Positions 536-59,744 are shown, counted from the stretch's first letter. The stretch: DNA of 64,000 nt from an uncultured virus (IMG/VR IMGVR_UViG_3300035516_000278) (IMGVR_UViG_3300035516_000278); one strand, 5' to 3'. Program-made: numbers and translations. The notes: generated by a model not told the origin, from the sequence alone.

Positions 536-602
536 ATAGGTCTTACTATTTTCACAAACCGTAAGACTAAGTGCTTTATTGTTTAACTCTAATTCTTCAT
601 AG

Positions 603-674
603 TCGGGATATTTGGAATCAAACCAAATCTTAGACATTCAAAGTGTCTCGTGCGAATCTTTACACTATATCCCA
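603..674 (-). tRNA. trnQ: tRNA-Gln(UUG)
   Basis: Cloverleaf TGGGATA TA GTGT AAAGATTC GCAC G AGACA CT TTG AA TGTCT AAGA TTTGG TTTGATT CCAAA TATCCCG A; U1-G72 wobble and A73. Confidence 0.88.
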
Positions 675-772: not shown

Positions 773-1411
773 CTAGTCCTCAAAACAAATACTTAACCTA
801 TTATATAAATAGTTTCCTTCAATGAAATCCTTGTGATTATCCATTGATCCTGTATTAAGTATTTGTTCCCATTGGAAATTGTGAACACGCCAATATCTTG
901 TTTCTGTAATAAACATTTTGGGATTGATCACAATTTTACCTTGATAGAAAACTACTAGCTCTTCATCAGTCTGCCGAAGAACATGAAGTCCTTCTACATC
1001 AGAAGAATCTGCGGCAAACATCCAACAGAAGTTGAAGTTTACATACAGATTATCATTTTCTTCTACCTTATATAAGAAGTAAACCTTACCCTCTTCATCA
1101 GGTACAGGAATAACTTCTGAGATTGTGAGAACTTCCAAAGCATGCTCTTTATTATTAAAGGCAATAATGTCTTTATAAAAGACATTAAAGAAATTCTCAT
1201 CCTGCACAAGTACTTTATCTCCTACTTGCCAAGTAGGAGGAGTAAGTACTGTAAGGTTTTTCACATCAGCAATATAAATATCGTTGATATATGAGCAGTA
1301 TACTAATGCTCGACCAGTTTCTTTCATTTGTTTGACAATACCCGCATAATGCCGTTTATTGTCATACACGTAATCATAATTGTTCATACCTTTATTTGTT
1401 ATGGATTGCAT
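773..1411 (-). CDS. hypothetical protein (ends in TAG; read-through would add QILNLNKY)
   Basis: 212-aa ORF overlapping the neighbouring gene in an operon-like array. Confidence 0.8.
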   Translation of the reverse strand: MQSITNKGMNNYDYVYDNKRHYAGIVKQMKETGRALVYCSYINDIYIADVKNLTVLTPPTWQVGDKVLVQDENFFNVFYKDIIAFNNKEHALEVLTISEVIPVPDEEGKVYFLYKVEENDNLYVNFNFCWMFAADSSDVEGLHVLRQTDEELVVFYQGKIVINPKMFITETRYWRVHNFQWEQILNTGSMDNHKDFIEGNYLYNRLSICFED

Positions 1412-1700
1412 AATCTACTGCATTTGCTAAGCAGTAATATGTAGTAGTGTCTTGTGTTATCAACCTACATACTCCGTAATCTTCAAATTCTATTTTCAGT
1501 TCATCACCATTAATGACTGAAACTATTCTATCTGAAACTACATCTGCACGCAAATAAACAGTACCCTCTACATATTCGCTGAAAGTATCTTTAAAGACTA
1601 ACCTATTTCCAATGTTGGCTTTTATAAACTCAACACATTTGTCTTTCAGATTTTCCTGAAGAATTTTTACTTCTTCAAATAACTCGTCAATTTCTTCCAT
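1392..1700 (-). CDS. small hypothetical protein, member of a tandem family
   Basis: 102-aa ORF overlapping its neighbours. Confidence 0.8.
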   Translation of the reverse strand: MEEIDELFEEVKILQENLKDKCVEFIKANIGNRLVFKDTFSEYVEGTVYLRADVVSDRIVSVINGDELKIEFEDYGVCRLITQDTTTYYCLANAVDYAIHNK

Positions 1701-2010
1701 CTTTAAGAAGTTTTATTGCTTCTGCAATTGCATAAATCTCCCAAAGTTCAAAGGAAGATACAGGAAGATACATATCAGAAGTAAGTTTTGCAATTACTTC
1801 CCCATTATGGGGTTCTTGATATACTGCAAGAACTTGTACTGGTTTATATTCTCCCTGGCAAAAGACTACAACACTAGGATGTGTATCTATTTCGCAAAAA
1901 CCTTTATTATAAGAGATTTGAACTTTAATATATTCAAGACACGCATTAATACAGTCAGTCTCAAGCTCAGATAAATCTGCCGCAAGCTTTTCAAAATGCT
2001 CTTCCATCAT
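1687..2010 (-). CDS. small hypothetical protein, member of a tandem family
   Basis: 107-aa ORF overlapping its neighbours. Confidence 0.8.
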   Translation of the reverse strand: MMEEHFEKLAADLSELETDCINACLEYIKVQISYNKGFCEIDTHPSVVVFCQGEYKPVQVLAVYQEPHNGEVIAKLTSDMYLPVSSFELWEIYAIAEAIKLLKDGRN

Positions 2011-2344
2011 CTAATACAATTTCGGGAATTTTACTATTATACTGAATGGCGTCTACAATGCCGAATACTTCTTTGGCATCGAAGATTACAACATTCATTT
2101 CCTTATTGTTGTCTAAGGAGACTTTCAAATCTCCTTCAGAGGAAGTAAAGAGTTTCGTAATTGTAACATTACGATAAACAATGCGTCCAGAAGCTTCTCG
2201 TTCTGAATCCAATATTTGGGGTTTGCGGAATTTATCCGTAAAGTCAAACTCTTTCTTTTTCTTAAGAATTTCGATACACTCGTTTTTCAAACTCTCTTCA
2301 TTGGATATGAGAGTTTGAAGTAAATCATCTAATTTTGTTGTCAT
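1991..2344 (-). CDS. small hypothetical protein, member of a tandem family
   Basis: 117-aa ORF overlapping its neighbours. Confidence 0.8.
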   Translation of the reverse strand: MTTKLDDLLQTLISNEESLKNECIEILKKKKEFDFTDKFRKPQILDSEREASGRIVYRNVTITKLFTSSEGDLKVSLDNNKEMNVVIFDAKEVFGIVDAIQYNSKIPEIVLDDGRAF

Positions 2345-2622
2345 GATTTTAAATTTATGATTAATTTGTATATATCATTAATTTCTAAAAGAGCAACCTT
2401 ATAACGTCCTTCTTTAGTTATAATCCAAAGAAGGTTATTATTAGATTTTTCAATTTCCAGAATTTCAACATTCACACCTTGAATACAAACCACTGGTTTA
2501 GTTACAAATGTAACTTTTGTATTCACATTCTCTCTCAAATAAAGGGAGAAAAGACGGTAGGTTTCTTCTTCTGCATTAGAAAACCATTCCATCTTTTCTC
2601 CACACTCCTTCAGCGTAACCAT
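2341..2622 (-). CDS. small hypothetical protein, member of a tandem family
   Basis: 93-aa ORF with ATGA and TAATG start/stop overlaps. Confidence 0.8.
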   Translation of the reverse strand: MVTLKECGEKMEWFSNAEEETYRLFSLYLRENVNTKVTFVTKPVVCIQGVNVEILEIEKSNNNLLWIITKEGRYKVALLEINDIYKLIINLKS

Positions 2623-2945
2623 TATTTCTTAAAGGAGTTAGCTACTGTTTGTAGTAGTTGATACTGTTCTACAGTACTTAATTTTGAGAGAGAGCAGTGA
2701 TGACAATCTCCGTGATTAATGTAGAGCACCTCCACGTGGTCTGTCCAGATCTCAACCCCCGTGATCTCAACCACCACAACGTGGTGGCGAGCGTAATGAC
2801 TTACCATCGTGGGTAATACTTCTTCATTAAATTCAAGGTATTCTAATTTATGGTCGTTTAGAATACTAAGAATTTCTGATTTTACAAAGCTTTCAAAGTC
2901 AGCCATTGCCTGCTTAACTTTGATAAATTGTTCAGTTCCTTTCAT
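2622..2945 (-). CDS. small hypothetical protein, member of a tandem family
   Basis: 107-aa ORF whose stop overlaps the next start. Confidence 0.8.
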   Translation of the reverse strand: MKGTEQFIKVKQAMADFESFVKSEILSILNDHKLEYLEFNEEVLPTMVSHYARHHVVVVEITGVEIWTDHVEVLYINHGDCHHCSLSKLSTVEQYQLLQTVANSFKK

Positions 2946-2966
2946 TTGTTCATACTTTTTTAATAG

Positions 2967-3272
2967 TTATTTATTTTCACCACATTCAATTGCGATGGTT
3001 TCTGCCAATAAACCAAGAATATCCATAGTTAAGTCTGCTATGTAAATTCTAAGACTAGCAGTTTCTACATAAATATCTTCATCAGATCTCAAAAACAGTC
3101 TGAGAGCTTTTAAAATGTTACCACCATACGTAATGTGAGGTGGCACTTTAAATTCATATTCGCCTTTTTCATTTAAATGCTCCTTAAAATAGAGCATATA
3201 ATGAGTGAGACAGCGAGCTGCCATTTCTCTGTATGTCGCTAAGGAAATACGACAGCGATTAATTGTTACCAT
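2967..3272 (-). CDS. small hypothetical protein, member of a tandem family
   Basis: 101-aa ORF in the array. Confidence 0.75.
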   Translation of the reverse strand: MVTINRCRISLATYREMAARCLTHYMLYFKEHLNEKGEYEFKVPPHITYGGNILKALRLFLRSDEDIYVETASLRIYIADLTMDILGLLAETIAIECGENK

Positions 3273-3558
3273 AATGCATACGATTATAAGTTATTGTCGC
3301 TTCCATAAACTTTATGACTGCAAATCTCTCTGCAGGAGTGAACTCCGAGAATTTTACCTCGTATCCATTATTGAATACGAGATAAATTCCATCAAAACCA
3401 TCAATGCCTAAAACAGGCATTTGGTAGTATTCCCCTTCGTCTTCCACGACCACAGTAGGCTGTAAAAGATTAAATTCGAAGTTTCTATTTTCGTCCAGAT
3501 GTGAGGAAATATATTCCTCCTGTGCATCTAGAAAGAGTTGTTTATCCTTGATCTCCAT
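3259..3558 (-). CDS. small hypothetical protein, member of a tandem family
   Basis: Track ORF 3259..3597; the likely start is ATG 3558 (MEIKDKQ), which reduces overlap with the upstream gene. Confidence 0.75.
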   Translation of the reverse strand: MEIKDKQLFLDAQEEYISSHLDENRNFEFNLLQPTVVVEDEGEYYQMPVLGIDGFDGIYLVFNNGYEVKFSEFTPAERFAVIKFMEATITYNRMHYGNN

Positions 3559-3859
3559 TTTGCTTTTCCCATTCAAGTGTGATCGTTTCCTCCTCAAGAT
3601 ATATATATACCTTACCGTATGCAGTACGAAAGTGTATTCTTCGTTCTTGATTAATGATGTGGAATATAGCTTCCTTTTTACTTAATTCAATCAACGATCT
3701 GATCGTATCTGTCCTGAGTGTTGTATTGCCGTATGCAAAGAGTATTTCCTGAATACGGCTAACACAAGTTTCCTTGTACTTGTTATACAAGTATTCGGAA
3801 ACAGTGTAACAATTTGATCTTGTTACAGTCTTTTTTTCAATGAGTTCAAATGTTTGCAT
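3542..3859 (-). CDS. hypothetical protein
   Basis: 105-aa ORF with an A-rich leader. Confidence 0.75.
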   Translation of the reverse strand: MQTFELIEKKTVTRSNCYTVSEYLYNKYKETCVSRIQEILFAYGNTTLRTDTIRSLIELSKKEAIFHIINQERRIHFRTAYGKVYIYLEEETITLEWEKQNGDQG

Positions 3860-3890
3860 GAGTTTGTTGTTTTTTGTAAAGTTGGAAAAT

Positions 3891-3953
3891 GGGCATATAA
3901 AGATTGAAAACTGACTTGGTTCAATTAATTTCTGTCTTCAATTTTATATGCCC
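3891..3953. terminator. long intergenic hairpin, possible terminator or processing stem
   Basis: GGGCATATAAAGATTGAA ... TTCAATTTTATATGCCC imperfect inverted repeat. Confidence 0.4.
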
Positions 3954-4015
3954 GGTTATGTATTAAGGAAAGAAAATTCCTAGGAGCATCTAAAGATGAT
4001 ACTCCTAGTTATTTG

Positions 4016-4231
4016 TTATCCTAAATCAAAAGGATTTCTTGGCTCTCCATATTTCGCAGAGATTTCCGAGAAATCCGAGAACGTAGCTATACCAATGGTG
4101 ATAGCTACAACAGCTATCCCGAAGACAGCTTCAATCTGTGCCCCTTCTAGGGCAAACAAAAACATAAATAAAGCCTCTATTACAATAATATAATAGAAGT
4201 TTTTATAGAATCTAATCTTTAATTTTTTCAT
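4016..4231 (-). CDS. small membrane protein
   Basis: 71 aa with a basic N-terminus and two hydrophobic segments. Confidence 0.75.
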   Translation of the reverse strand: MKKLKIRFYKNFYYIIVIEALFMFLFALEGAQIEAVFGIAVVAITIGIATFSDFSEISAKYGEPRNPFDLG

Positions 4232-4614
4232 TATAACATGTATCTTTTATCAAGGATAATATATCCATTCTCCTTGAGAAGATGTATTGCATTTTCAATT
4301 GCAATTTGTTTACGACCTTCTTCTCCTGAAAAACGATAATGCTCCTTGAGTTTGTAATAACCATCAATAGCTTTACGCAACAAGCTGATGTGAACTGGCT
4401 CGTCCACAAAAGCGTATTGCCCTCTTGAAATTTTAATAATACATCCCTGTCTTATTAAGTTTATCAATAGTGGACTGTTGAGAGAAATTCCTATTTCTAA
4501 AAATTTCTCTTTCAATTCTGCAAAACTAAAGGATTTTAGTGTGTTCTCTTGGCGTAGACTATTAAAGTCGGAAATAAGTGTCCTATCTACGCAAATTGCT
4601 TTAGGGCGACTCAT
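4231..4614 (-). CDS. hypothetical protein, possible winged-helix DNA-binding domain
   Basis: 127 aa; LINLIRQGCIIKISRGQYAF resembles a wHTH recognition helix and wing. Confidence 0.65.
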   Translation of the reverse strand: MSRPKAICVDRTLISDFNSLRQENTLKSFSFAELKEKFLEIGISLNSPLLINLIRQGCIIKISRGQYAFVDEPVHISLLRKAIDGYYKLKEHYRFSGEEGRKQIAIENAIHLLKENGYIILDKRYML

Positions 4615-4615
4615 T

Positions 4616-4780
4616 TTACATAGTCTTTAAGGTACTAATTAACTTATCAACAGGCCATCCATGCACCTCGTTGAAAAAATCACGTGGTTGCACATCATGC
4701 ACCTGATTCAGGCGATTAACCTGAATTGTGTAAACTTTTTCTCCCATTTCGAGTTCGATTGTACGATTAAACTTTTTCAT
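4616..4780 (-). CDS. small hypothetical protein (54 aa, not in the track)
   Basis: MKKFNRTIELEMGEKVYTIQVNRLNQVHDVQPRDFFNEVHGWPVDKLISTLKTM; stop lies next to the following start. Confidence 0.65.
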   Translation of the reverse strand: MKKFNRTIELEMGEKVYTIQVNRLNQVHDVQPRDFFNEVHGWPVDKLISTLKTM

Positions 4781-5149
4781 AGGACATAAGGGTATTAAGC
4801 TCTAACCGAGCGAACGATACTATTCTATTCTGGTCGTACCAACCAGTCTTGTTTTAAGCAAAGCAATGTGGGTAACACATTCTTATAAACAAGCTAAAGC
4901 AATTTCTGTATTACTGGGAATGTAAATACAGATTGGGAAAATTCGAAAATAATTTTAGCACAGTTGGGATTTGTAAGTTTGCTACTAACTAATACAGTGT
5001 TCAAACGCAGAAAAATTAATTTAGAAAATGGTGAGGAAGTGAGGGAGTGGGGTAGTGTAATCTCACTCACTCAACCTCCTCTACCATCAAAAAACCTTAT
5101 TTAATTTCACTTTCCTGGCAAAAATACCAGTATACGTATTTACACACAT

Positions 5150-5386
5150 TCATTCGCATTCCTCGTCGTAATCGTGGGTCTGAATGTAAATCAGACGATG
5201 CATTGCAAGTTGATTACCCACAACACTCAACACAATTACTGTCACCAGCTGAAAATAACTGTGATTCACACAAAAGGTATTAGGATGTCCTAACACTTTC
5301 ATTATCATCACAGCTCCTGCTGATGTTACTAATATTACTGTAGCAACCATAATGATGATTGCCATCACTTGCTCAAATCGTTTCAT
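5150..5386 (-). CDS. small membrane protein
   Basis: 78 aa with two hydrophobic segments. Confidence 0.7.
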   Translation of the reverse strand: MKRFEQVMAIIIMVATVILVTSAGAVMIMKVLGHPNTFCVNHSYFQLVTVIVLSVVGNQLAMHRLIYIQTHDYDEECE

Positions 5387-5474
5387 GTTATTGTTGTTTT
5401 AGTTGTTATTTTTGCTCTTACGTAAAATGCTACTTCTCACTGAATAATTTATACCCAGCGAGAAGTATTAAGGA

Positions 5475-5906
5475 TTATTTAAACTCGGAGTTAGTTTTAT
5501 TGGCAACTAAGCAAACCTCCATTGCTACGTTAAACACGTAAAGTTGCTCGTAATCGTATTTGCCTCCGTAAATTCCCTCAAAGGCAATCTGTTTTGCCAC
5601 CTGCTGGCCAAGCAGGGGATCTTTGAAGAAATCCCGCTTACCATTTACAAACTCCTCTAAGGCTTCATATACAGGGAATGAGAAATGACCTTGCGGCCAC
5701 ACAATTATCTGACCATCGGAAACTGCTTTCGCATCTCCTTCTTCAAGGTGCTGCAGCAACAATTGTTCACAATGTTCCATACGCTTTAAAGCATACTCAT
5801 GCGCCATTTCTAATACGCCCTCTTTAGTGAGGGGACGATGGGAACATACGAAATCACTTTCTTGCAACTTTGAGCACATGTTGCTTAACTCTTTACTTGT
5901 TTTCAT
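5475..5906 (-). CDS. hypothetical protein
   Basis: 143-aa ORF. Confidence 0.8.
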   Translation of the reverse strand: MKTSKELSNMCSKLQESDFVCSHRPLTKEGVLEMAHEYALKRMEHCEQLLLQHLEEGDAKAVSDGQIIVWPQGHFSFPVYEALEEFVNGKRDFFKDPLLGQQVAKQIAFEGIYGGKYDYEQLYVFNVAMEVCLVANKTNSEFK

Positions 5907-5997
5907 TTCGGTAATGTATTAAATTAAACAATAATATAGTTTGTTTCCAACTAAGTAATTACTAAACTGCCCAGTTTTTCCAAGGAATACTGGATTC

Positions 5998-6186
5998 TTA
6001 TCTTTGATGTCTGCCCAAAGGCAGTACTCGATGAATGCCATAGATTCTTTCTCTTATATGTACCAACTCATAGAAAGCAGGCACATCCATTAACAAACTC
6101 GGTGTTGTAATGTAAAAGCAACCTTCTGTTGTTATCAGAAGGTTGCCTTTGTGAGAAGTACCTAGTACGACCTTCTTAAAGGTCAT
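5998..6186 (-). CDS. small hypothetical protein
   Basis: 62 aa; ATGA overlap with the upstream gene. Confidence 0.6.
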   Translation of the reverse strand: MTFKKVVLGTSHKGNLLITTEGCFYITTPSLLMDVPAFYELVHIRERIYGIHRVLPLGRHQR

Positions 6187-6704
6187 ACTTCGGTAAAGGT
6201 TACAACGGATTGCATACGAGTGCCAACAACCTGATTGTTCACACGGTCTGCAATGCGCACACGCTCAACTTTCGTGACCTCAAGGGTCATACCTGCGATG
6301 AGCTCCAAGATGTCATACTGCGTGGCGCATTTCATAACATCCGTGTAGAGATCATCTTCACTGTGAACTCTACGGCCAGTTGGCTGTAGATCCTCTCCAT
6401 ATTCCGTCGCATTGCGGCGCAACGAAGAGATGATGAGGAAGCGGCCGATACCTGCTTCCGTCTCGACAGCGATACCCGCGAAGGGCTGCTTTTGGTATTC
6501 ACGAAGAACGAGCAACTCCTTGTAGTTCTGAGGCACAGTGAACTTATCACCAACCTCCCACGTACTCTCGCTGGGATCGTTGTTCGTCATAGTCTTCAAC
6601 TTCTCAACAGCCTCATTTCCTGTGACTGCACCATCCATCTTAGACTGTCTGTCAAAGACTAACTTAGCAACTTCACTAACTGCACTAGTTTTACCTTTTG
6701 CCAT
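6183..6704 (-). CDS. hypothetical protein
   Basis: 173-aa ORF with an AT-rich leader (TAAAATTATG). Confidence 0.85.
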   Translation of the reverse strand: MAKGKTSAVSEVAKLVFDRQSKMDGAVTGNEAVEKLKTMTNNDPSESTWEVGDKFTVPQNYKELLVLREYQKQPFAGIAVETEAGIGRFLIISSLRRNATEYGEDLQPTGRRVHSEDDLYTDVMKCATQYDILELIAGMTLEVTKVERVRIADRVNNQVVGTRMQSVVTFTEV

Positions 6705-6777
6705 AATTTTAAATATTGTGATACACTATGGGACCGTAGTGTATCGGGTTAATTATTAAATGTTAAAGTGATAATTG

Positions 6778-6842
6778 CCCCAGACTACCAACGTACAACT
6801 GTTGATAGTTTCGTCGCAATTCTCAGCGACTCTTCAGTGGAG
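6778..6842 (-). ncRNA. type I hammerhead ribozyme
   Basis: CTCCA CTGAAGA GTCGC TGAGAATT GCGAC GAAA CTATCAAC AGTTGTAC GTTGGTAG TC TGGGG: complete CUGANGA / GAAA / UH core with stems I, II and III. Confidence 0.92.
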
Positions 6843-7154
6843 TTAAAAGTGCTCGTCTTTCCGAGCTGCCAACTGTCACATGTACTCCTCGCATACAGTA
6901 TTTGCGATTCGTGAGCTAAACTCTCCGTAGCTCCTCAGAGGTCTACCAAGCTTGTCAATATGGATACATTCTCCTTATGTAGACGTCGGAGAATAATTAC
7001 CAGCCTGTCATTAAAGTGCGTCAAGCCATACACTAGTTTACCCGCTTTGCTTACGTCCTTGGGTCTCAGACTGCCTAGGACATTTATAAGAGGAACTTCC
7101 TCTCGCCTAGGAATGGTTGTTTTGTCATAATGAACGACGCAAAAGTTAATAATG

Positions 7155-7188
7155 CATCTCCCAACTACGCGTCAATAGTTGGGAGATG
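7155..7188 (-). terminator. hairpin directly after the 7192..7653 gene
   Basis: CATCTCCCAACTA / TAGTTGGGAGATG perfect inverted repeat. Confidence 0.55.
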
Positions 7189-7191
7189 TTG

Positions 7192-7653
7192 TTACTTCTT
7201 AATCCAGCCGATAGCCCCATTCAGGGGATCGACATAATTACCCTCTGCATCGGGACCTTCCGGCCAGTCTTCCAAATTCATAGAATTGAAAGACTTATGA
7301 GTGCCCTTGTACTGGAACTCTTCATCAGGAGTATCACGACGAGGCCAGCTATCATTGGCTGCAGCCTCCTCAGATTTGTAATACTGAGGTTCGTCGTATG
7401 AATACTTAACAGAACCATGTAGAAGATCTACTGATTCCAAAGTACGTACTGTCCCCTTGATAACAGCAGTTTTTGCAAACTGCTGCGAAGGCATCATAAA
7501 CGATGCCAAAAAGTTAAGGGCAGTGACTTCATCCATACCTGTGCATAACGCACGGAATACAGTTTCCAATGATACTGTTGTACCTTGCATGAGACCACGT
7601 ACAAAAGCATTTGCATTCTTGTTCATAATGAAAATAGATATTAAATTAAACAT
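7192..7653 (-). CDS. hypothetical protein (start may be ATG 7626)
   Basis: ORF of up to 153 aa followed by a hairpin. Confidence 0.75.
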   Translation of the reverse strand: MFNLISIFIMNKNANAFVRGLMQGTTVSLETVFRALCTGMDEVTALNFLASFMMPSQQFAKTAVIKGTVRTLESVDLLHGSVKYSYDEPQYYKSEEAAANDSWPRRDTPDEEFQYKGTHKSFNSMNLEDWPEGPDAEGNYVDPLNGAIGWIKK

Positions 7654-7769
7654 TTGTTATACATCTGTAAGGTATGGGAGCGGGTATACATGAGGCTACA
7701 TTTTGCTCGCGCCGCGAGCACCCCCGAAGCACCACCAAAAAATGGTGGTGTCCGAGGATGCCCGTGGGG

Positions 7770-7907
7770 TCAGCGAAACACCTCTTTCACCTCGTCGGCG
7801 AAAGGGAGCAGTTTTTCAAAATTATCTGCTGAAACAAAAACCGCCGTATCAACGTGGCAATTTAGAAAACTTCCCCTGTCTGTAGGGTAGTAAACACGAA
7901 TTTTCAT
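7770..7907 (-). CDS. small hypothetical protein (MKIRVYYPTD...)
   Basis: C-terminal part of track ORF 7770..7997, starting at an internal ATG with an AT-rich leader. Confidence 0.45.
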   Translation of the reverse strand: MKIRVYYPTDRGSFLNCHVDTAVFVSADNFEKLLPFADEVKEVFR

Positions 7908-8010
7908 AGTGTGACATTTTAAGTTAAACAATAAAGTTGAAAAGGGACTTTTATAGGTAAAAGTCCCAAAGAAAAACCGCTCGCTTTTTGGTATCAAAAC
8001 GAGCTGAAAA

Positions 8011-8505
8011 TTACTTTGACTGAATTTTCGCCTTATATTGTGTTTCAGTCAGAAAGCCGCCTATGCGACCTTTGCCCTCCTTTTTGGCACGCGACCAATA
8101 GACGAACGTTTGCCCGCCTAAAGTATTGCATTTGTCTGCGAGTTCTTTGCCGACGATGTTCCCGAGGGCAAAGTCCTCATGGTCATCTCCAATACCGCGA
8201 CGACCAAAAAGGGCGGGGGACACGCCGTCAAAAGCGTGCCCGTTGAGGGTGCATGAAAGCACGTAGTAGTTACCGCTTTCCTCCTTTCCCTCATCATTGA
8301 CACGCTTCCACGTGCCAAGATTCCAGAATGTTTTCTTTGGATTCTTTGAATCCAAAGACTTAATAACGATTTTATCGCCATTGTAGAATGGCGATTTTGA
8401 GGCAAACCCACCTTCACCTTTTTCGGCGGCGGGTTTAATCGTCTTTTCAAAATCAACTGATTTTGAAGCGATTTTAACCTCATAAGTTGTGGTTGATTTT
8501 CCCAT
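8011..8505 (-). CDS. hypothetical basic protein, first gene of the leftward arm
   Basis: 164-aa Lys/Gly-rich ORF. Confidence 0.8.
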   Translation of the reverse strand: MGKSTTTYEVKIASKSVDFEKTIKPAAEKGEGGFASKSPFYNGDKIVIKSLDSKNPKKTFWNLGTWKRVNDEGKEESGNYYVLSCTLNGHAFDGVSPALFGRRGIGDDHEDFALGNIVGKELADKCNTLGGQTFVYWSRAKKEGKGRIGGFLTETQYKAKIQSK

Positions 8506-8921: not shown

Positions 8922-9289
8922 TGGAAATATTAAATGACATTCTCGCTAACTACGATAATTTAGAAATCGTAACACTGGATAATGGTGATGTACAAATCAC
9001 AATCCACAAAAACAATAGATTAAATGAAATCAAACAAGAATTAGATACTATAGACAATGATCTTTTTATTGCTGCTGCATCGTTTTTTAAGACTTATGAT
9101 CCCGAACATTTCTCAATCTTTCAGGAGCAAATAAGTGATTGTACAGATGAGAATCTTCTTGAAGAGAATTATCTTCGCTTTAAGAGTGCTCTTGCAAAGG
9201 CAGCACAAGATGAAGTAGCAAATTTGAAATCTTCAATTAATTCTGCTGAAGATAGAATTAATGAATTGCAAACTAAGTATTTGAAATAA
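8921..9289 (+). CDS. hypothetical protein with a C-terminal coiled coil
   Basis: Track ORF 8888..9289 with a likely ATG at 8921; contains no TAG. Confidence 0.75.
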   Translation: MEILNDILANYDNLEIVTLDNGDVQITIHKNNRLNEIKQELDTIDNDLFIAAASFFKTYDPEHFSIFQEQISDCTDENLLEENYLRFKSALAKAAQDEVANLKSSINSAEDRINELQTKYLK

Positions 9290-9332
9290 GATATTAATGC
9301 CTTATGTTGTAACGGTTAGCAAGGAAGACTCT

Positions 9333-10317
9333 TAAAAATTTTAAAGTAATGGAAAACAAAATTTATAAACTTCACGATCAAGAGTTTATAGACTTAGTTA
9401 AGTCAAGTCTTAACATCTCAGAAGTTTTATTTAAACTTGGATATACTACAAAAGGTAATTCTTGGGGATATTCACAAGTTAAACAACGTATGACAGATTT
9501 AAATTTGGCAGGAAAGGATTTTAGAGGAAGATCAGCAATAGCTGAAACAGTTAAAAAAGTAAACCCTGAAAATTTATTCTGTAAAGGTTCAAAGCACAAT
9601 AGATCAGTATTAAGAAGAACGATTATTCAACAGCAATTATTGCCTTATAAATGTGCAATATGTGGAATAACTGAATGGCAAGGAAAAACATTATCATTAG
9701 AACTTGACCATATTAATGGAGAGAATAACGATAATAGAATTGAAAATTTAAGATTTTTATGTCCTAACTGTCATTCTCAAACTGATACATACGGATCTAG
9801 AAATCAAAAAATCACTGAATCTAAATACGATATAACTGATGAATTAAGAGATTTAGTTATTAGTAAATATCTAGAATTAAAGAGTCAAAAGAAAGTTTCA
9901 GAAATACTAAACATTAAACATTTAGTAGTAAAACAAATTATATCTGAGGCTGGGTTGGGGAAATCAAATCAAAAGTATGTTATTCAATACGATAAAGATA
10001 TGAATGAAGTACAAAGATTTGGAACGATTTCCGAATGTTGTGATTATTTAATGGCTAATAATTTAGTAACAACTAAAATTATGAAAACTTGTAGAACTAC
10101 CTTATTGAGAAATGTCGATAAATTTTGGAATAATTATTACTTTAAATTATTGGATGCTTAAAGGATAATACATAATCTTTAAGTAGAATCTCTTTTAATT
10201 GACTTAGAAGCGTATAGTGATAAGGCGCAAGCGTAATGGTAGCGTGAACGACTAAATAAAGAGACTGGTCTTAGGACTGGATGCGATAGTCTAATCCAAA
10301 CAAATTGGTGTAAAATG
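9333..10317 (+). mobile_element. group I intron in the suppressor tRNA anticodon, carrying an HNH ORF
   Basis: The exon ends in U and the intron ends in G. Core elements follow the ORF: P3 TCTCTTT/AAAGAGA and P7 GACTA/TAGTC (AACGACTAAA ... GATAGTCTA). P1/IGS could not be identified unambiguously. Confidence 0.85.
9349..10161 (+). CDS. intron-encoded HNH homing endonuclease
   Basis: CAICG...LELDHINGENNDNRIENLRFLCPNCHSQT motif; C-terminal VIQYDKDMNEVQRFGTISE resembles a NUMOD1-type repeat. Confidence 0.92.
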   Translation: MENKIYKLHDQEFIDLVKSSLNISEVLFKLGYTTKGNSWGYSQVKQRMTDLNLAGKDFRGRSAIAETVKKVNPENLFCKGSKHNRSVLRRTIIQQQLLPYKCAICGITEWQGKTLSLELDHINGENNDNRIENLRFLCPNCHSQTDTYGSRNQKITESKYDITDELRDLVISKYLELKSQKKVSEILNIKHLVVKQIISEAGLGKSNQKYVIQYDKDMNEVQRFGTISECCDYLMANNLVTTKIMKTCRTTLLRNVDKFWNNYYFKLLDA

Positions 10318-10355
10318 AAATCTTCAAGTCTCAGTTCGAGTCTGAGTGGGGCGAC

Positions 10356-10514
10356 ATGAATACCTTATTAACTAAAGTCCTCAATCTTTAGATGTACATC
10401 GTTCTTAAATGGACGAAGCATATAATAAAAAAGATTGAGAAGCTAAATTTACAAAACCAGCAAAATGTGCTCGAATGGCTGGATGAATTAAATAGATTTT
10501 CAGTTATGTATTAA
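10356..10514 (+). CDS. small hypothetical protein (needs TAG=Gln at codon 12)
   Basis: 52-aa read-through ORF between the tRNA 3' end and a terminator. Confidence 0.4.
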
Positions 10515-10518
10515 GATT

Positions 10519-10558
10519 AAAAAAGGCGGCTTCCCGAATAAGGAAGTCGCCTAATTTT
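10519..10558. terminator. bidirectional intrinsic terminator between convergent units
   Basis: A-run, AGGCGGCTTCC / GGAAGTCGCCT stem, then a T-rich tail. Confidence 0.8.
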
Positions 10559-54413: not shown

Positions 54414-57400
54414 ATGATTGTAGCACAAATGACGAACTTACGTCCTACGATGAGCGAAACGAGGACGTATGAAGATTTTTATAAGGTCATTGGTACAAAG
54501 CCCCACATGCTCGGTGTTTTGTCTCGTATGAATCCTGACCTTACTACCAACTTTATTACTGAAGGTTTACGTAACGTATTCTATAACGATAATAAGAAGT
54601 CTAACCGTTTCCAGTCAATTGACTCCATGTATTTCGATTGGGAAATTGAATCTAATCAGATTAAGAAGATTCAGTTTGCTGAAGTACCCACCGAGGTTGG
54701 TACTGATGGTACCGAAATTACTATGAAGTTTACTGAGCGCTGGTATGAGAAATATGATATTTTCAAGATTGACAAAACTCGTCAGCAGTGTATCGTAGTT
54801 TCTCGTCCTATCCGTCGTGCAGATAACTGCTGGGAAGTACAGGTTCGTTTGGTAGATAACAACTACGATACGGAGCTTGATCTCGAAGGCTGCCAGATTG
54901 GTGATACTACTACATTCCAGTCTAATGCAGTTCCTGAAATGTCAGAGGAAGGCTACGTTAAGTATCAGAGTAAACAAATATTGCTCCTTGTCATTGTGAG
55001 ATGACTCGAAGAAGCTTTTTAATTGCTGGAAACTTACAATAATTTGTAACAATCAGCAGCGAAGATTGAGATTGTGCAAACATTTTTATGGAGCACTCAA
55101 TAACGTTCAACGACTATCCCGCAAGGGAGTACACCTAAAGGTGGAAATGGAAGCTAACTTTATGAAATATATAATATATTAGACGCTCAATACAATCAAT
55201 AACAAAATCTATGTCGGAGTACATAAAACTAAAGATCCAGAAGTTTTTGATGGATATATAGGATGTGGTATTAGAATAAATATGCCAAGTTCCTATAATA
55301 ATCCGTCAACTCCTTTACAATTTGCAGTAAATAAATATGGAACTAAAGCCTTTAAGAGATCAACTCTTTATATATTTGATACTCCAGAAGAGGCTTATGC
55401 AGAAGAAGCGAGATTGGTAAATAAAGACTTTATCCGCAGAACTGATACCTATAATGCTAAATTAGGTGGTTATGGAAGAAATAGTTGGTTTACAAAAGTT
55501 TATCAATTCACTTTAGATGGTACATTTGTAAAGATGTGGGATTCACTTATAGAGGCTTCCGATTTTTACGGAGTATCTCATACTGCAATTTTACAAGCTG
55601 CTAAATTCAAAGGAAGTTGTAAACGATTCTTTTGGTCTTATGTTGAAAATCCTGATTTATCTAAATACACTAGTAGTGTAGGAACTATTTGCTATCAATA
55701 TGATTCTGATGGTCATTATTGCAATACTTACAATTCTTATTTTGAAGCAATGCAAGATAATGACATTTCAGAACAATCCTTATCAAGGGCAATTAAAGGA
55801 GGATATAATCTTAAAGGATTTTATTACAGTACTAAACTCTTAGAAGAATATAATGGAAAACCTAAAGTATCTTTAAAAGGCAAATCCATTTATGTATATT
55901 CTTTAGATGGAGAATTTATTACTGAACTTAAAAACTCTACAGAGATTTATGAGTTCTTCAATATTAAAACAACTCATGCAATTACTACAGCATTGAGAAC
56001 AGAACGACCATATAAGCAATATCAAATATCTTTAGAGCATGTGCTACAAATGCCTAAAGTTATAAACAAAAGAAACATCAGCAAGCCTGTTGAGTGTTAT
56101 GATTTATATGGTAATTTGATTGAAGAATTTAAAAGCATTACTGAAGCTGTGAAGAAATATGGAACTGGAGTTCAGAAAGTTCTAAAAGGGCAGCAACAAG
56201 TATGCAAAGAACATATATTTCAGTATAAAAGTTAATGATATAGTCTACATTTTTAAAAATGTGAATATTGAGAAGCATAGAGGTTACATTAATACCTTCC
56301 GTGTTGATGATTCTTACTCTTCTCTTTACAAGATCCATGAGCAGAAGTTTATTTCAATTGCAGAAGGTAAAGATCAGGGTAGCTTAAAAGAGACTATCTA
56401 TAAGATGGATACCGTTGAAAAGAACCTCTTGGATAACTTCCAGTTCGTAAAGAATCAGGGACTTCTTTTGAACAAGTCAAATATTGATCCTAAGACAGGA
56501 AAACCGACGATATGTGACCCTAAACTCCAGTATTGGGGTCAAGCAGCTTAACATAAGTTGCAAAAAGCAAAATCTACTGAATTGCTGGAAATCTAAACGG
56601 ATAATGCCGTAGACAATCAGCAGCCAAGACTATACATAGGCAGGCTCGTATGAGTAGCGTATAGTAAGGTTCAACGACTAGCCGCAGGGCGTACACACTT
56701 TATGTGTGGAAGTGGTAGATTCTTATTTTAAAATGTTAAAATATATTTGAATATGATTTATATTGTATATTGTACTACCAATATTCTTAATAAGAAGATT
56801 TATATTGGTGTTCATAAGTGTGAGTCTAATAAGTTTGATGGTTATATTGGCTGTGGTGTTTATGTAAATAAACCTAGTACCTATAATAAACCTAAAACAA
56901 CTTTTCAGTTTGCAGTACAAAAGTATGGGCCTAGCAACTTTAAACGTATTGTTATTAAAGAATACGATAATTTAGAGGATGCTTATAATTTAGAGGCGGA
57001 ACTTGTAAATAAAGAATTTCTTCAAAGAAAGGATGTTTATAATGAAATTCTTGGAGGAAATGTGGGCGATACTACAACAGCAGTACCTTGTTCACAGTAT
57101 GATTTAAATGGTAAATATCTTAGAAGTTTTGATTCTCAACAAGACGCTGCTAGATATGTTGGCAGAGGTTTTTCAACAATCAAACATGCCATTAAAAATC
57201 ATGTAAAATCTGCTGATAGTTATTGGGCACTTGAAAAAGTTGATACTTTAGACTTAACTAATTACAAAACTACTGATAATAGAGTTCCAGTATTTCAATA
57301 CTCTATAAATGGCGAATATGATTGCTGTTATGAATCTGTTGCTGATGCAGCGAGAGTAAATAATGAAGCTACTTCTAATATCTCTAGAAGTTGTAAACTA

Positions 57401-59744
57401 GGATTTAGATGTGGTGATAAATATTTTTCTTATGAATTTCAGCCCACATATTCAATAGCCAGAAATGAGCAAATAAAGAATCAAAAGGTTTATCAATATT
57501 CTTTAGATGGACAGTTTATAAAGGAATATGATTCTTATTTAGTTGCTCAAAGAGAATTGGGAAAACATGGTTTAGGAACTGCTATTAAACTTGGAAGACT
57601 ATTCGCTGATTTTCAGTGGAAATTAGAAAAGTTTGATTCAATAGCACCTGTAAAAAGTATACATAATAAAGCAAGAGCAGTAGGACAGTATGATTTAGAT
57701 GGAAATTTAATTAAAACATATCGTACTGTTACAGATTGTGGAAAAGATTTTCCAGGAAGTTTACAAGTTTTGCGAGGCAAATATAAAACTTCTGGAGGAT
57801 TCGTATTTAAATATATAGAATAAGAAAAGATATAGTCTAATCCTTAAGAAATTAAGGTAATTTTTAATCGGACAATGGATACTGGTCGTCCGATTTACAT
57901 TTCCGATGGATTTATTCCTCAGGTCGAAAGATTTGCATCCAAGTTTGCTGCTTCTCGCATTGATGTAGAGACATTCAACACAATCATCTCTACTATGTGT
58001 GACAAGGCAGAGAAGGCCACTGGTAATAAGTTTGTATTTATTGTAAACGACCGTGCTTGGCATCTCGTACAGCAGTCACTTGGTGGCTATCTCGCTAACT
58101 TTAAGGTTGATGCTACCTACCTCTGGTCTAAGTAGGCTAACGGTTACGTTAAGGTAGGTGCAACTTTCGACACTTATGAGTATGGTGGCAACTAGATTTC
58201 ATTCAAGGTTGATAGAGCACTTACTCGTGAGTTCGGTAGTGAGAAAGCCTACATGATTTGTGTCGATTTGACCGCAGATGCAGCTTCTAATACTCCTGCA
58301 GTAGCATCCTTCGCTTTGAAGGGCAAAGATTTCATCTACAACAAGATTCTTGGTGTTGGTGGTCTTGATGGTATGTCCTCTGGAATTGTTTCTTCGCCTG
58401 TAGCAGGCTCCAAACTCTCAATCCATGGATTAATTCTTCGCATAGTCCATGTAAAACTTTTTAAATTGCTGGAAAGCCGTGTAGGTAATCAGCAGCCAAG
58501 CCGTAAAATAAGAGCCTGATAAGGACAGTTTTACGGAAGGTTCAACGACTAGTGCTAATGCACGTAAATTAATTTTGAAAAAGAAAGTGACCTAACGTAT
58601 GAAATACATTGTATATCAAGTTACAAATAAAGAAAATGGAAAACTATATATAGGAGTCCATAAAACTGAAAATCCCGATGTGTTTGACGGGTATATTGGA
58701 AATGGCATTTGTGTTGGATATTCTTTAGAAAATCCTAAAACAGCATATCAACATGCTTTAAAAAAATATGGCTATAAAGCTTTTGTAAGAACTACATTAA
58801 AGGTCTTTGATAAGCTTGAAGATGCTTTAAGTTATGAAGCATTTTTAGTTACACCAGAATTTGTAAAGCAAGACAATAATTATAATACAGCTGTTGGTGG
58901 AGGTTATGCAATTATATATAAAACAATATATCAATTTAATAACAGAAAAGAACTAGTAAGAACCTGGGAAGGAAATCCTTCTGTAGCAGAGTTCTATGGA
59001 ATATCAAAACAAGTTGTTAATTATGCCATTTTACATAAAAAAATAATTCTTGATTCTTATTTTAGTTATGATGAATCTCCAATATTTGAAGAATTTACAA
59101 CTTATAGAAATGAGTTATTTGAATTTTCTGATACTGGTGATTTATTAAATACTTATAAAAGTACAAGAGATGCAGCAGAAAAGACTGGTTATAATTTAAA
59201 AAGCATTGAAGCTGCTGCAACAGAAAAGAAAATTTATAAAAATCATTATTGGACTAGAAATCCTGATGATATTTATAATATAATTAAAATCAACCATTTA
59301 TATAAACTAACTTACAAGCCTGTAATTCTTTATAATGATAAGAAAGAGGTTATTAAAGAATATAGGAACATGAGAGAAGCTGCTGCTGAGTTAAATCTTA
59401 GTTATGATACTATTAAGCAAGGAGCTAGACTTGGAAGGTTAGTAAATGGAATGTATTATTTCTCTTATACTAATGTAGTTACTAAAGCTACTAAAATAGG
59501 ACAATATGAAAATGGAGAACTTGTTAAAGTTTGGGATACGGTAGCACAATGTGCTAAAGTTCATCCTAAGTGTAGAGAAGTTCTAAAAGGACAGAGAAAT
59601 CAAACACATGGATATACATTTAAGTATTTAGAAGAAGATTAGGTTAATGATATAGTCTAATCCTATATGAAAATATAGGTATCAAATGATGCAGGAATTG
59701 CAGTGTTTAATCCCTATAGATCCTTCATTCTCAGAGAAATTTGA
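54414..59744 (+). CDS. major capsid protein, 474 aa; exons 54414-54971, 56264-56521, 57878-58430, 59689-59744 (two TAG in exon 3)
   Basis: The exons total 1425 nt in one frame. Junctions read YQS|NIEKHRG, ICDP|DTGRP and IHG(Y)AGIAVFNPYRSF. Codon usage is strongly biased, as for a highly expressed gene, and a terminator follows. Confidence 0.88.
54972..56263 (+). mobile_element. group I intron 1 in MCP
   Basis: U at the exon end and terminal G; IGS ATATTGCTC pairs with both exons; AATTGCTGGAA, AATCAGCAGC, TTCAACGACTA and GATATAGTCT core elements. Confidence 0.92.
55162..56235 (+). CDS. intron-encoded GIY-YIG homing endonuclease with NUMOD1-like repeats (TAG at codon 7)
   Basis: MKYIIYQTLNTINNKIYVGVHKT with read-through; repeated YQxxxDG units. 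Confidence 0.88.
56522..57877 (+). mobile_element. group I intron 2 in MCP
   Basis: IGS CCAGTATTGGGGTCA pairs with TGACCCT and GATACTGG; same core elements as intron 1; terminal G. Confidence 0.92.
56753..57823 (+). CDS. intron-encoded GIY-YIG homing endonuclease
   Basis: MIYIVYCTTNILNKKIYIGVHK...YIGCG and QYDLNG repeats. Confidence 0.88.
   Translation: MIYIVYCTTNILNKKIYIGVHKCESNKFDGYIGCGVYVNKPSTYNKPKTTFQFAVQKYGPSNFKRIVIKEYDNLEDAYNLEAELVNKEFLQRKDVYNEILGGNVGDTTTAVPCSQYDLNGKYLRSFDSQQDAARYVGRGFSTIKHAIKNHVKSADSYWALEKVDTLDLTNYKTTDNRVPVFQYSINGEYDCCYESVADAARVNNEATSNISRSCKLGFRCGDKYFSYEFQPTYSIARNEQIKNQKVYQYSLDGQFIKEYDSYLVAQRELGKHGLGTAIKLGRLFADFQWKLEKFDSIAPVKSIHNKARAVGQYDLDGNLIKTYRTVTDCGKDFPGSLQVLRGKYKTSGGFVFKYIE
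58431..59688 (+). mobile_element. group I intron 3 in MCP
   Basis: IGS GCATAGTCCATG pairs with CATGGAT and ATGC; same core elements; terminal G; splits a Tyr codon. Confidence 0.92.
58599..59660 (+). CDS. intron-encoded GIY-YIG homing endonuclease (ends at TAG 59642, or at TAA 59660 with read-through)
   Basis: MKYIVYQVTNKENGKLYIGVHKT and NUMOD1-like repeats. Confidence 0.88.

What the first reader, a model, noticed from the sequence alone, without database searches (positions are those of the whole stretch)
9298..10354. Amber suppressor tRNA whose CUA anticodon is created only by group I intron splicing: a possible splice-gated genetic code switch
Seen: two tRNA halves 985 nt apart join into a cloverleaf with the loop CU-CU|A-AA. 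This is the only 7-nt loop compatible with an exon ending in U and an intron ending in G. The insert has group I P3 and P7 elements and an HNH ORF free of TAG codons. The tRNA shares U1-G72 and A73 with the phage tRNA-Gln(UUG), and lies at the boundary between the TAG-free arm and the TAG-laden genes. Established: crAss-like phages with TAG-to-Gln recoding and suppressor tRNAs are known, as are group I introns in bacterial anticodon loops. Inference: unspliced precursor cannot decode UAG, so splicing could time late and lysis gene translation, and the intron occupies a site from which imprecise loss would be lethal. Standard tRNA scanners would probably miss this gene. I cannot confirm whether this combination has been described.
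Basis: partly seen in the sequence, partly recalled or inferred. Interest (0 to 1): 0.95.

Follow-up and report, generated by a model that had tools for sequence, protein, structure and literature searches.

The report
Intron-split amber suppressor tRNA in phage
A gut phage that reads the stop codon TAG as an amino acid keeps its TAG-reading tRNA gene cut in two, inside the anticodon, by a mobile self-splicing-type intron with its own endonuclease gene; this hides the gene from tRNA finders, but the intron looks like a selfish passenger, not a built-in timer.

Summary
Exons 9298-9332 and 10318-10354 join into a 72-nt cloverleaf with loop CUCU|AAA and anticodon CUA. ARAGORN calls it only after the exons are joined.

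The 985-nt insert carries an HNH ORF. Its 3' part is a compact group I-type core (P2-P9, with the P3/P7 pseudoknot). Covariation across 22 homologues supports that core: 96% of cells paired against 32-47% with partners slid.

A long-range helix, different in sequence in each subtype, closes the ORF loop next to an invariant UUGGA guide. Rfam's group I model does not match.

The same split gene occurs in all 25 sources examined and in more viral contigs. In three complete TAG-recoded 98-kb relatives it is the only CUA tRNA found.

Relatives equally close by portal identity are also TAG-recoded but carry the tRNA uninterrupted. The HNH protein is far more conserved than the portal. So the intron is most likely a homing element. 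Splicing is obligatory, but nothing shows that it is a timer.

Five literature searches found no description. Published surveys report many recoded phages without a detectable suppressor. This scan had already noted the same phenomenon on other genomes.

The parts
9298..9332 (+). tRNA(CUA) 5' exon, tRNA positions 1-35; ends with anticodon bases C34 U35
   Evidence: homologous exons in 24 loci
9333..10317 (+). 985-nt group I-type intron; U at -1, G at its last base (10317)
9340..9352 (+). 5' arm of the long-range helix (P1 extension) that closes the ORF-containing loop; covers the ORF's ATG (9349-9351)
   Evidence: duplex -14.2 kcal/mol with 10134-10146; the equivalent helix, with a different sequence, is present in 17 of 17 loci
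9349..10161 (+). HNH homing-endonuclease ORF, 270 aa, no in-frame TAG
   Evidence: PF01844, 25.7 bits; phrog_10822, 4e-43
10134..10146 (+). 3' arm of the P1-extension helix, inside the last codons of the ORF
10150..10154 (+). candidate internal guide TTGGA: GGA pairs with exon UCU (G.U at the splice site, P1) and UU with the 3' exon's AA (P10)
   Evidence: invariant in 22 of 22 aligned sequences, so without covariation; the position just 5' of P2 fits; inferred
10157..10183 (+). P2 hairpin (10157-10164 with 10176-10183)
   Evidence: 5 of 8 pairs changed on both sides; RNAalifold predicts it independently
10189..10195 (+). P3, 5' strand
   Evidence: 6 of 7 pairs changed on both sides
10203..10224 (+). 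P4 (10203-10206 with 10221-10224) enclosing a short P5 (10210-10212 with 10216-10218); flanked by invariant GAA and GA junctions
10225..10245 (+). P6 (10225-10228 with 10242-10245, invariant) and P6a (10231-10232 with 10239-10240)
   Evidence: one P6a pair covaries (CG 15, UA 6)
10250..10254 (+). P7, 5' strand (GACTA)
   Evidence: 100% of cells paired; A-U becomes G-C in 3 distinct sequences
10258..10264 (+). P3, 3' strand; forms the P3/P7 pseudoknot
10265..10280 (+). P8 hairpin
   Evidence: 2 of 6 pairs changed on both sides
10287..10291 (+). P7, 3' strand (TAGTC)
10296..10308 (+). P9 hairpin, present only in the window's intron subtype
   Evidence: read: CCAA..TTGG here, CCTC..GAGG and other pairs in relatives; not counted formally
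10318..10354 (+). tRNA(CUA) 3' exon, positions 36-73; starts with anticodon base A36
10524..10552 (+). terminator-like hairpin (11 pairs, 7 G-C, then a T run) 170 nt after the tRNA
602..674 (-). phage tRNA-Gln(UUG), the comparator: same U1.G72, G2-C71 and A73; 43 of 73 bases identical to the joined suppressor

Best explanation
The locus is a working amber-suppressor tRNA gene, most likely glutamine-accepting, of a TAG-recoded, distantly crAss-like phage. A mobile group I-type intron interrupts it between tRNA positions 35 and 36.

The proposed RNA anatomy is as follows:
- The intron's own HNH endonuclease gene sits in the P1 loop.
- An 11-13-bp long-range helix joins the first ~20 intron bases to the end of the ORF. 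This brings the 5' splice site next to an invariant guide, UUGGA.
- That guide can pair with both exon ends: UCU (with a G.U at the splice site) and AA.
- A compact core downstream (P2 to P9) does the chemistry.

Precise excision is the only way to make the CUA anticodon, so translation of the TAG-rich virion and lysis genes needs splicing.

The intron itself is a selfish homing element. Its endonuclease, written in standard code, is expected to cut intron-less tRNA(CUA) alleles of co-infecting phages and copy the intron into them. The element is tolerated because it splices.

Shown here: the split gene, the tRNA fold, covariation of the core and of the closing helix, its spread, TAG recoding, and the absence of another CUA tRNA in complete relatives. 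Inferred: self-splicing, the P1/P10 pairing, Gln charging and homing.
For: Split gene and tRNA fold:
-.
- All 25 sources examined (window plus 24 loci) have ...CTCT | intron | AA[A/C].... ARAGORN calls cta in 18 of 25 after joining.

RNA structure:
- Core structure on 22 sequences: 96.3% of 840 cells paired against 32-47% when partners are slid. 18 of 40 pairs changed on both sides. 0 of 500 shuffles reach the covariation score.
- RNAalifold finds P2, P3, P4, P5, P6, P6a and P8 on its own.
- Closing helix: own pairs average -13.0 kcal/mol in 17 of 17 loci. Cross-subtype pairs average -5.6 (n=144) and shuffles -6.0, sd 2.5.
- U at -1 in 25 of 25 sources; G at the last intron base in 24 of 25.

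HNH:
-.
- 0 TAG in 24 of 24 ORFs read correctly (the 25th, L004, was read from a wrong start). They hold 256 CAA/CAG.

Recoding:
- ORFs of at least 100 aa cover 28.5 kb under the standard code and 57.0 kb with TAG as sense.
- At 95 portal alignment columns with TAG, the other sequences have Q in 111 of 407 cells. That is 27.3% against a 4.7% background.

Sole CUA tRNA: three whole relatives (G002-G004) show none other.

Mobility:
- HNH identity is 85/82/82% where portal identity is 49/52/50%. It is 58-60% where portal identity is 20-25%.
- Intron-less alleles exist in recoded relatives with 47-53% portal identity.
Against: - Rfam's curated group I model RF00028 does not match 9333-10317 at gathering score, nor at E<=10 in 1251-nt or 186-nt searches. 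It does score 54 bits on another intron of the same window.
- My own model of the core does not hit that other intron.
- The exon-guide pairing is only 3+2 bp and invariant, so untested by covariation. In one relative (L242) the guide reads AAGGA, which loses the proposed pairing with the 3' exon.
- Four TAG-recoded relatives of the Bohxovirus type end the intron in A, not G.
- No read or contig shows the spliced form. The three runs on record as RNA hold only the unspliced sequence, as contigs.
- The rest of this phage's genome could not be searched for a second CUA tRNA.
Confidence: 0.8

Rival explanations
1. Splice-gated code switch. The intron is kept because the rate or timing of splicing decides when the suppressor appears, and so when TAG-rich late and lysis genes can be translated. 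Competition between ribosomes on the HNH ORF and the P1-extension helix that covers its start codon could contribute.
For: - The anticodon exists only after splicing.
- It is the only CUA tRNA found in three complete recoded relatives.
- The split gene lies at the head or edge of the TAG-rich block in the window and in G002-G004.
- The ORF's ATG lies inside the closing helix.
- The HNH ORF avoids TAG: 0 of 14 Gln-type codons here, where late genes use TAG for 130 of 320. By my arithmetic, P is about 7e-4.
- A ribozyme role in the code switch has been proposed for HDV-like theta ribozymes beside phage suppressor tRNAs (PMC10879173, passages).
Against: - Recoded relatives of the same clade manage with uninterrupted alleles.
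- The intron's distribution and its conservation relative to the portal fit horizontal homing.
- TAG avoidance is also expected of any element that must be expressed in naive genomes. The window's three GIY-YIG endonuclease ORFs have only 2 TAG among 43 Gln-type codons.
- No data on kinetics.
- Recalled, not tested: group I splicing is usually fast and co-transcriptional.
Confidence: 0.12
2. Dead gene. The tRNA was destroyed by insertion of an endonuclease cassette that does not splice, and TAG is decoded by another tRNA, of the phage outside the window or of the host.
For: - No spliced form was seen.
- Rfam's group I model does not match.
- Only 64 kb of the genome could be examined.
Against: - tRNA stems keep pairing through compensatory changes across diverged loci.
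- The non-coding core is more conserved than the ORF and covaries.
- U at -1 and G at the last intron base sit at exactly the split that restores a 7-nt loop identical to that of uninterrupted homologues.
- No other CUA tRNA in three complete recoded relatives.
Confidence: 0.04
3. The insert is a structured self-splicing RNA but not a true group I intron. It could be a different or much reduced ribozyme class that only resembles group I in helix order.
For: - No hit to RF00028, and none by my model to the Rfam-certified intron at 56512-56808.
- Very short P5 and P6.
- No P9 in the second subtype.
- One subgroup ends in A rather than G.
Against: - Helix order P1-P2-P3-P4-P5-P6-P7-P3'-P8-P7'-P9 with the P3/P7 pseudoknot, U at -1, G at the last base, and a guide just 5' of P2.
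- The core motif is shared with 39 other viral loci that lack the tRNA-type guide motif; their host genes were not identified.
- RF00028 also missed all 15 related loci tried. Its seeds include no bacterial intron (Williams 2020 preprint, whole text read).
Confidence: 0.05

Closest known systems
Group I introns in anticodon loops of bacterial and plastid tRNA genes. The classical classes are Leu.3Ug, fMet.2Ug, Arg.5Ug and Ile2.5Ug, all subgroup IC3; 21 classes in Williams 2020 (bioRxiv 10.1101/2020.01.27.920355, whole text read; its table is an image I could not see)
   Same: - A group I-type intron inside the anticodon loop of a tRNA gene.
- U at -1 and G at the last intron base.
- The mature loop, and here the anticodon, exists only after splicing.
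- Ordinary tRNA finders miss such genes.
   Different: - The host is a phage and the tRNA reads a stop codon.
- The site is after the fourth loop base (between 35 and 36). That would be '4Ug' in Williams' numbering and is none of the four classical classes.
- The intron carries an HNH ORF in the P1 loop.
- Rfam's model does not match.
- The subgroup was not determined. The core motifs are shared with other viral introns that lack the tRNA-type guide motif.
Endonuclease-bearing group I introns of phage protein genes, including the intron-rich Delta and Zeta crAss-like phages (Yutin et al. 2021, PMC7886860, passages read)
   Same: - A mobile intron with a homing-endonuclease ORF in an essential phage gene.
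- The same window has three GIY-YIG/NUMOD endonuclease ORFs and one Rfam group I hit splitting a gene at 55-60 kb.
   Different: - The interrupted gene is a tRNA, not a protein gene.
- Yutin et al. found introns through endonuclease domains in protein genes. The passages I read do not mention a tRNA intron.
Theta (HDV-like) ribozymes beside phage tRNAs, one in five of them suppressor tRNAs (PMC10879173, passages read)
   Same: A ribozyme physically tied to maturation of a phage suppressor tRNA in recoded gut phages, and proposed to take part in the code switch.
   Different: That is a small self-cleaving ribozyme at the tRNA's 3' end, not an intron in the anticodon. The word 'intron' does not occur in that paper.
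'Enigmatic' introns in Lak megaphage tRNAs (Devoto et al. preprint 10.1101/356790, passages read)
   Same: Introns in tRNA genes of TAG-recoded gut phages.
   Different: They are reported in tRNA-Phe, Gly, Thr and Tyr, not in the suppressor. They were found with eukaryote settings of a tRNA scanner. No class is named and no endonuclease described in the passages I read.
tRNA-fMet group I intron of a cyanobacterium that encodes its own homing endonuclease
   Same: A tRNA anticodon-loop intron with a homing endonuclease that targets the tRNA gene.
   Different: Another endonuclease family and another tRNA; bacterial, not phage. This is a lead only and was not tested here.

Membership tests
Group I intron (by anatomy) | U as the last base of the 5' exon | tested here: met
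   25 of 25 sources end the 5' exon in ...CTCT
Group I intron (by anatomy) | G as the last base of the intron (omega G) | tested here: met
   Window: G10317. Across sources, 24 of 25. L005 ends in A, as do L033, L077 and L111 as read.
Group I intron (by anatomy) | Core helices P3-P8 in canonical order, with the P3/P7 pseudoknot and the P4-P6 stack | tested here: met
   96.3% paired against 32-47% slid. Changes on both sides in P3 (6 of 7 pairs), P4 (2 of 4), P8 (2 of 6) and P7 (1 of 5). One search agrees for the nested helices.
Group I intron (by anatomy) | Internal guide pairing with the 5' exon (a G.U at the splice site, P1) and with the 3' exon (P10) | tested here: inconclusive
   UUGGA at 10150-10154 can pair with UCU|AA. 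It is invariant in 22 of 22, so there is no covariation. In L242 it reads AAGGA, which loses the P10 pairs. The adjacent closing helix does covary.
Group I intron (by anatomy) | Guanosine-dependent self-splicing | not testable with these tools
   The runs laid were contigs holding only the unspliced form.
Rfam RF00028 Intron_gpI (curated model) | Score at or above the gathering cut-off | tested here: not met
   No match at gathering score or at E<=10. The model also missed 15 of 15 related loci, so it is a weak test for this class.
tRNA, amber suppressor (anticodon CUA) | Cloverleaf with a 7-nt anticodon loop reading CUA at positions 34-36 | tested here: met
   ARAGORN on the joined exons. Uninterrupted homologues have the same loop.
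tRNA, amber suppressor (anticodon CUA) | In-frame TAG read as sense in the same genome | tested here: met
tRNA-Gln identity | Charged with glutamine | not testable with these tools
   Indirect only. Q is enriched 5.9-fold at TAG columns of six portals. U1.G72 and A73 are shared with the phage tRNA-Gln.
HNH homing endonuclease | HNH nuclease domain above the curated cut-off | tested here: met
   PF01844 at 25.7 bits against 21.4; phrog_10822 at 4e-43. No PDB relative by sequence at E<=1.
HNH homing endonuclease | Encoded inside an intron, with intron-less alleles of the same site existing in relatives | tested here: met
HNH homing endonuclease | Cleaves the intron-less allele | not testable with these tools
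Classical bacterial tRNA introns, subgroup IC3 | Insertion at one of the four classical sites and IC3 core features | tested here: not met
   The site after the fourth loop base is none of 3Ug, 2Ug or 5Ug. The subgroup itself was not tested.

The most novel reading that the evidence does not exclude
Splicing of the intron is the rate-limiting step that switches the infected cell to the phage's altered genetic code. It could be tuned by competition between ribosomes on the HNH ORF and the P1-extension helix that buries its start codon. On this reading a mobile ribozyme has been co-opted as the clock for late and lysis gene translation. Its endonuclease would also disable the sole suppressor gene of intron-less competitors.
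Probability: 0.12. Interest if true: 0.85.

Novelty: new variant of a known kind. Interest (0 to 1): 0.6.

Why it matters
Published surveys report a gap:
- TAG suppressor tRNAs were detected in only 40% of TAG-recoded phage genomes (Borges et al. preprint, passages).
- In crAss-like phages recoding and detectable suppressors do not agree (PMC7886860; review PMC10136315; PMC12386605; passages). The review calls the mechanism 'ambiguous'.

An intron inside the anticodon hides the suppressor from ARAGORN and from Rfam's tRNA model. In three complete recoded genomes examined here it is the only CUA tRNA. Split suppressors therefore account for at least part of the missing ones.

They also make the altered code depend on a ribozyme, which gives a direct experimental handle on the code switch. 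Annotation pipelines for recoded phages would need an exon-based search for split tRNAs.

Tried and rejected
- **Rfam group I model.** I ran it on 9200-10450 and on 10140-10325 at E<=10 and got only chance-level hits to unrelated families. On 15 related loci at E<=0.01 it gave nothing.
- **My covariance model R1 of the core.** It scores 148 bits on itself and does not hit the Rfam-certified intron at 56512-56808, so there is no model-based link.
- **Sequencing runs.** X1-X3 are on record as RNA but are kept as contigs. They hold the unspliced stretch (X1 covers 9000-10394) and show no joints. This says nothing on splicing.
- **Whole genome.** None is held. A 40-mer from the window's start was absent from metagenome contigs. 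The second-CUA-tRNA test is therefore limited to the window.
- **Amino acid of TAG from G002-G004.** These genomes are too distant (portal identity 20-25%) and gave no signal. I replaced this with six portals of 47-53% identity.
- **First guesses at the closing helix.** I first paired intron bases with the P2 3' strand, and in the second subtype with the guide itself. I dropped both once P2 proved to covary locally and the real partner was found upstream of the guide.
- **RNAalifold's alternative pairing.** It paired alignment columns 2-9 with 153-160 in place of P7. I rejected this because column 159 changes together with column 126, not with column 3.
- **Other checks that gave nothing.** The promoter scan gave 15 sites against 11.3 expected. 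The PDB sequence search with the HNH protein gave no hit. The scan's notes for this genome or this sequence held nothing.
- **Crude classifier.** It mis-registers some loci (for example L066, L095, L107), so I use its counts only as rough figures.
- **Paper not held.** The journal version of Borges et al. is not in the library. I saw only passages of the preprint.

Full report
**Observation**

The stretch 9298-9332 ends ...GAAGA CTCT, and 10318-10354 begins AAA TCTTC.

Tests on the unjoined DNA found nothing. ARAGORN on the window reports only tRNA-Arg(tct) and tRNA-Gln(ttg) near the window's start. It finds nothing at the locus even with introns allowed. Rfam's tRNA model reports neither half.

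When a script joins the exons by slicing, ARAGORN calls a tRNA with anticodon cta and loop CUCUAAA. Of the eight ways to split a 7-nt loop, only this one puts U before the intron and G at its end (read).

**Not chance: homologues**

A 25-mer of the T arm and acceptor finds three viral contigs of 174-179 kb. They carry uninterrupted tRNA(cta) genes with the same loop, and two of them hold a tandem pair.

GenBank MT835539.1 has the whole split gene at 77% identity. Its junctions are the same, and its acceptor, T and anticodon stems show compensatory changes.

A search with the HNH protein returned 23 loci, 22 of them full length. In every full one the ORF sits between tRNA halves.

I examined 25 sources: the window, L004, L005 and L009-L030.
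- An automatic rule solved 21. It required CTCT, then G, then AA[A/C], and a perfect 5-bp anticodon stem.
- A relaxed rule solved the other 4.
- After joining, ARAGORN called cta in 18 of 25.
- The 7 not called share an unusual T loop. Several sources are near-duplicates.

There are two intron subtypes. The window's type has a 3' exon starting AAA and a P9 hairpin. The second type has a 3' exon starting AAC, no P9, and an ORF that runs on into P7.

**The intron**

Rfam's group I model hits 56512-56808 in this window (54 bits) but not the tRNA insert. That held at E<=10 on 1251 nt and on 186 nt.

The anatomy nevertheless is group I-like. I aligned 22 sequences from the ORF's last codons to the tRNA end. 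On that alignment the structure P2, P3, P4, P5, P6/P6a, P7 (pseudoknot) and P8 gave these figures:
- 96.3% of 840 cells paired, against 32-47% with partners slid by 1 to 3 columns.
- 18 of 40 pairs changed on both sides.
- 0 of 500 shuffles reached the covariation score.

RNAalifold independently returns all the nested helices. The junctions are invariant (GAA and GA around P5, and ATGCRA before P7').

P1 is the weakest part. An invariant TTGGA lies just 5' of P2, inside the ORF's last codons. It can pair with the exon ends UCU|AA, but it never varies.

A second feature does vary. The first ~20-30 intron bases pair with the ORF's last ~30 bases, ending 2-7 nt before the guide's GGA in 16 of 17 loci and 14 nt before it in one.
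- Own pairs average -13.0 kcal/mol in 17 of 17 loci.
- Cross-subtype pairs average -5.6 (n=144), and shuffles -6.0, sd 2.5.
- The sequences differ completely between subtypes.

This helix closes the ORF as the P1 loop and places the 5' splice site beside the guide. In the window it covers the ORF's ATG.

The core motif also occurs in 109 viral stretches. Of the 80 fetched, 77 could be assessed:
- 38 had the tRNA-type guide motif, and 34 of those also passed a crude T-arm test.
- 39 lacked the guide motif; their host genes were not identified.

Rfam's model missed 15 of 15 of these loci that I tried. According to Williams 2020 (whole text read) its seeds include no bacterial intron. I therefore treat the Rfam miss as a weak test. 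I call the element a group I-type intron by anatomy, not by model membership.

**The code**

ORFs of at least 100 aa cover 28.5 kb under the standard code, 57.0 kb with TAG as sense and 32.6 kb with TGA as sense. Portal, tail-fibre and lysozyme-like genes are TAG-rich.

Eight large genes use TAG for 130 of 320 Gln-type codons. The minus-strand arm at 1392-8505 uses it for 0 of 49, and the HNH ORF for 0 of 14. 24 of 24 HNH ORFs read correctly have none.

I aligned six portals of 47-53% identity. At the 95 columns where at least one has TAG, the other sequences carry Q in 111 of 407 cells. That is 27.3% against 4.7% overall, followed by K and E.

The suppressor shares U1.G72, G2-C71 and A73 with the phage's tRNA-Gln, and 43 of 73 bases are identical. 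Gln is thus likely but unproven.

**Is it the only suppressor?**

No whole genome is held for the window, and the window's start was not found in the metagenome collection.

Three complete 98-kb relatives with the split gene were fetched whole.
- They are TAG-recoded. Frame cover rises from 62.0 to 91.7 kb, from 69.5 to 89.5 kb and from 77.7 to 94.3 kb with TAG as sense.
- ARAGORN finds no other cta tRNA in them.

Partial censuses of nine further records also found none. Some Rfam matches there were left untyped.

**Passenger or switch?**

Three observations bear on this.
- The uninterrupted alleles L001-L003 lie in genomes whose portals are 47-53% identical to the window's. That is as close as the intron-bearing relatives. 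Those portals contain 16-28 TAGs. The clade therefore recodes with or without the intron.
- HNH identity to the window is 85, 82 and 82% in genomes with portal identity of 49, 52 and 50%. It is 58-60% in crAss-like genomes with portal identity of 20-25%.
- The intron sits in tRNA bodies with very different acceptor stems.

This is the signature of homing. Splicing is obligatory for decoding, but nothing indicates regulation of its timing. The start codon buried in the closing helix and the gene's place at the edge of the TAG-rich block keep the gating idea alive at low odds.

**Context**

The portal is 22-24% identical to portals of crAss-like phages. The closest relatives are 174-179 kb genomes, or fragments with CheckV completeness estimates of 19-55%. 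That size range and the intron load fit the Zeta group described by Yutin et al. (passages). I did not test that assignment further.

A terminator-like hairpin follows the gene at 10524-10552.

**Literature**

Five full-text searches found no description of an intron-split suppressor tRNA in a phage.

I read passages of PMC7886860, PMC12386605, PMC10879173, PMC10136315, PMC9523058, PMC12363816, PMC11835236 and of two preprints (10.1101/2021.08.26.457843 and 10.1101/356790). I read Williams 2020 whole. The journal version of Borges et al. and all supplements were not seen and may bear on this claim.

The scan's own notebook holds at least eight earlier notes of the same phenomenon on other genomes. 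They reach the same verdict. I formed my reading before seeing them.

Noticed in passing
window 55066-59700: Three GIY-YIG/NUMOD homing-endonuclease ORFs (55066-56235, 56747-57823, 58599-59660) split a gene whose fragments include 56261-56551 and 57875-58519. Rfam calls a group I intron at 56512-56808. My core model gives partial P7'-like matches at 56226-56270 and 59629-59682, at the ends of two of these ORFs. This suggests three introns in one gene.
   Followed up: partly
L005 2380-2395; L033, L077, L111: In four Bohxovirus-type records the intron ends ...TTTAAYA directly before the 3' exon AAC, so its last base would be A, not G. These genomes are TAG-recoded (12-20 TAG in the portal).
   Followed up: partly
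L020, L022, L023, L025-L028 (also L048, L064, L081, L087, L103): A subfamily of split tRNA(CUA) genes has a non-canonical T loop (GGCAGCA or GGCGGCA) in place of TTCGAAT. ARAGORN does not call it even after joining, yet it is conserved across many contigs.
   Followed up: no
L019 and L028 (one 162-kb viral contig): One contig holds two different split tRNA(CUA) genes. One has a canonical T arm and the other the odd one.
   Followed up: no
L001 1600-1750, L002 1476-1626: Two uninterrupted tRNA(cta) genes of different sequence stand in tandem, 5 nt apart.
   Followed up: no
G001:C1:50725-50810: ARAGORN types an 86-nt tRNA with anticodon tta (ochre-reading) in a relative that also has the split CUA gene.
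   Followed up: no
window 9349-9351 with 10136-10146: The HNH ORF's start codon lies inside the long-range helix that closes the P1 loop. Folding of the ribozyme and translation of the endonuclease may therefore exclude each other.
   Followed up: partly
window 2434-2567 (-): A weak full-length match of my intron-core model (17.7 bits, rough E 0.04) inside the TAG-free arm. It is probably chance.
   Followed up: no
window 10298 in run X2: A contig leaves the window's sequence at 10298 and continues with an intron end and 3' exon like those of locus L011. This points to a second strain or a relative in the same sample.
   Followed up: no
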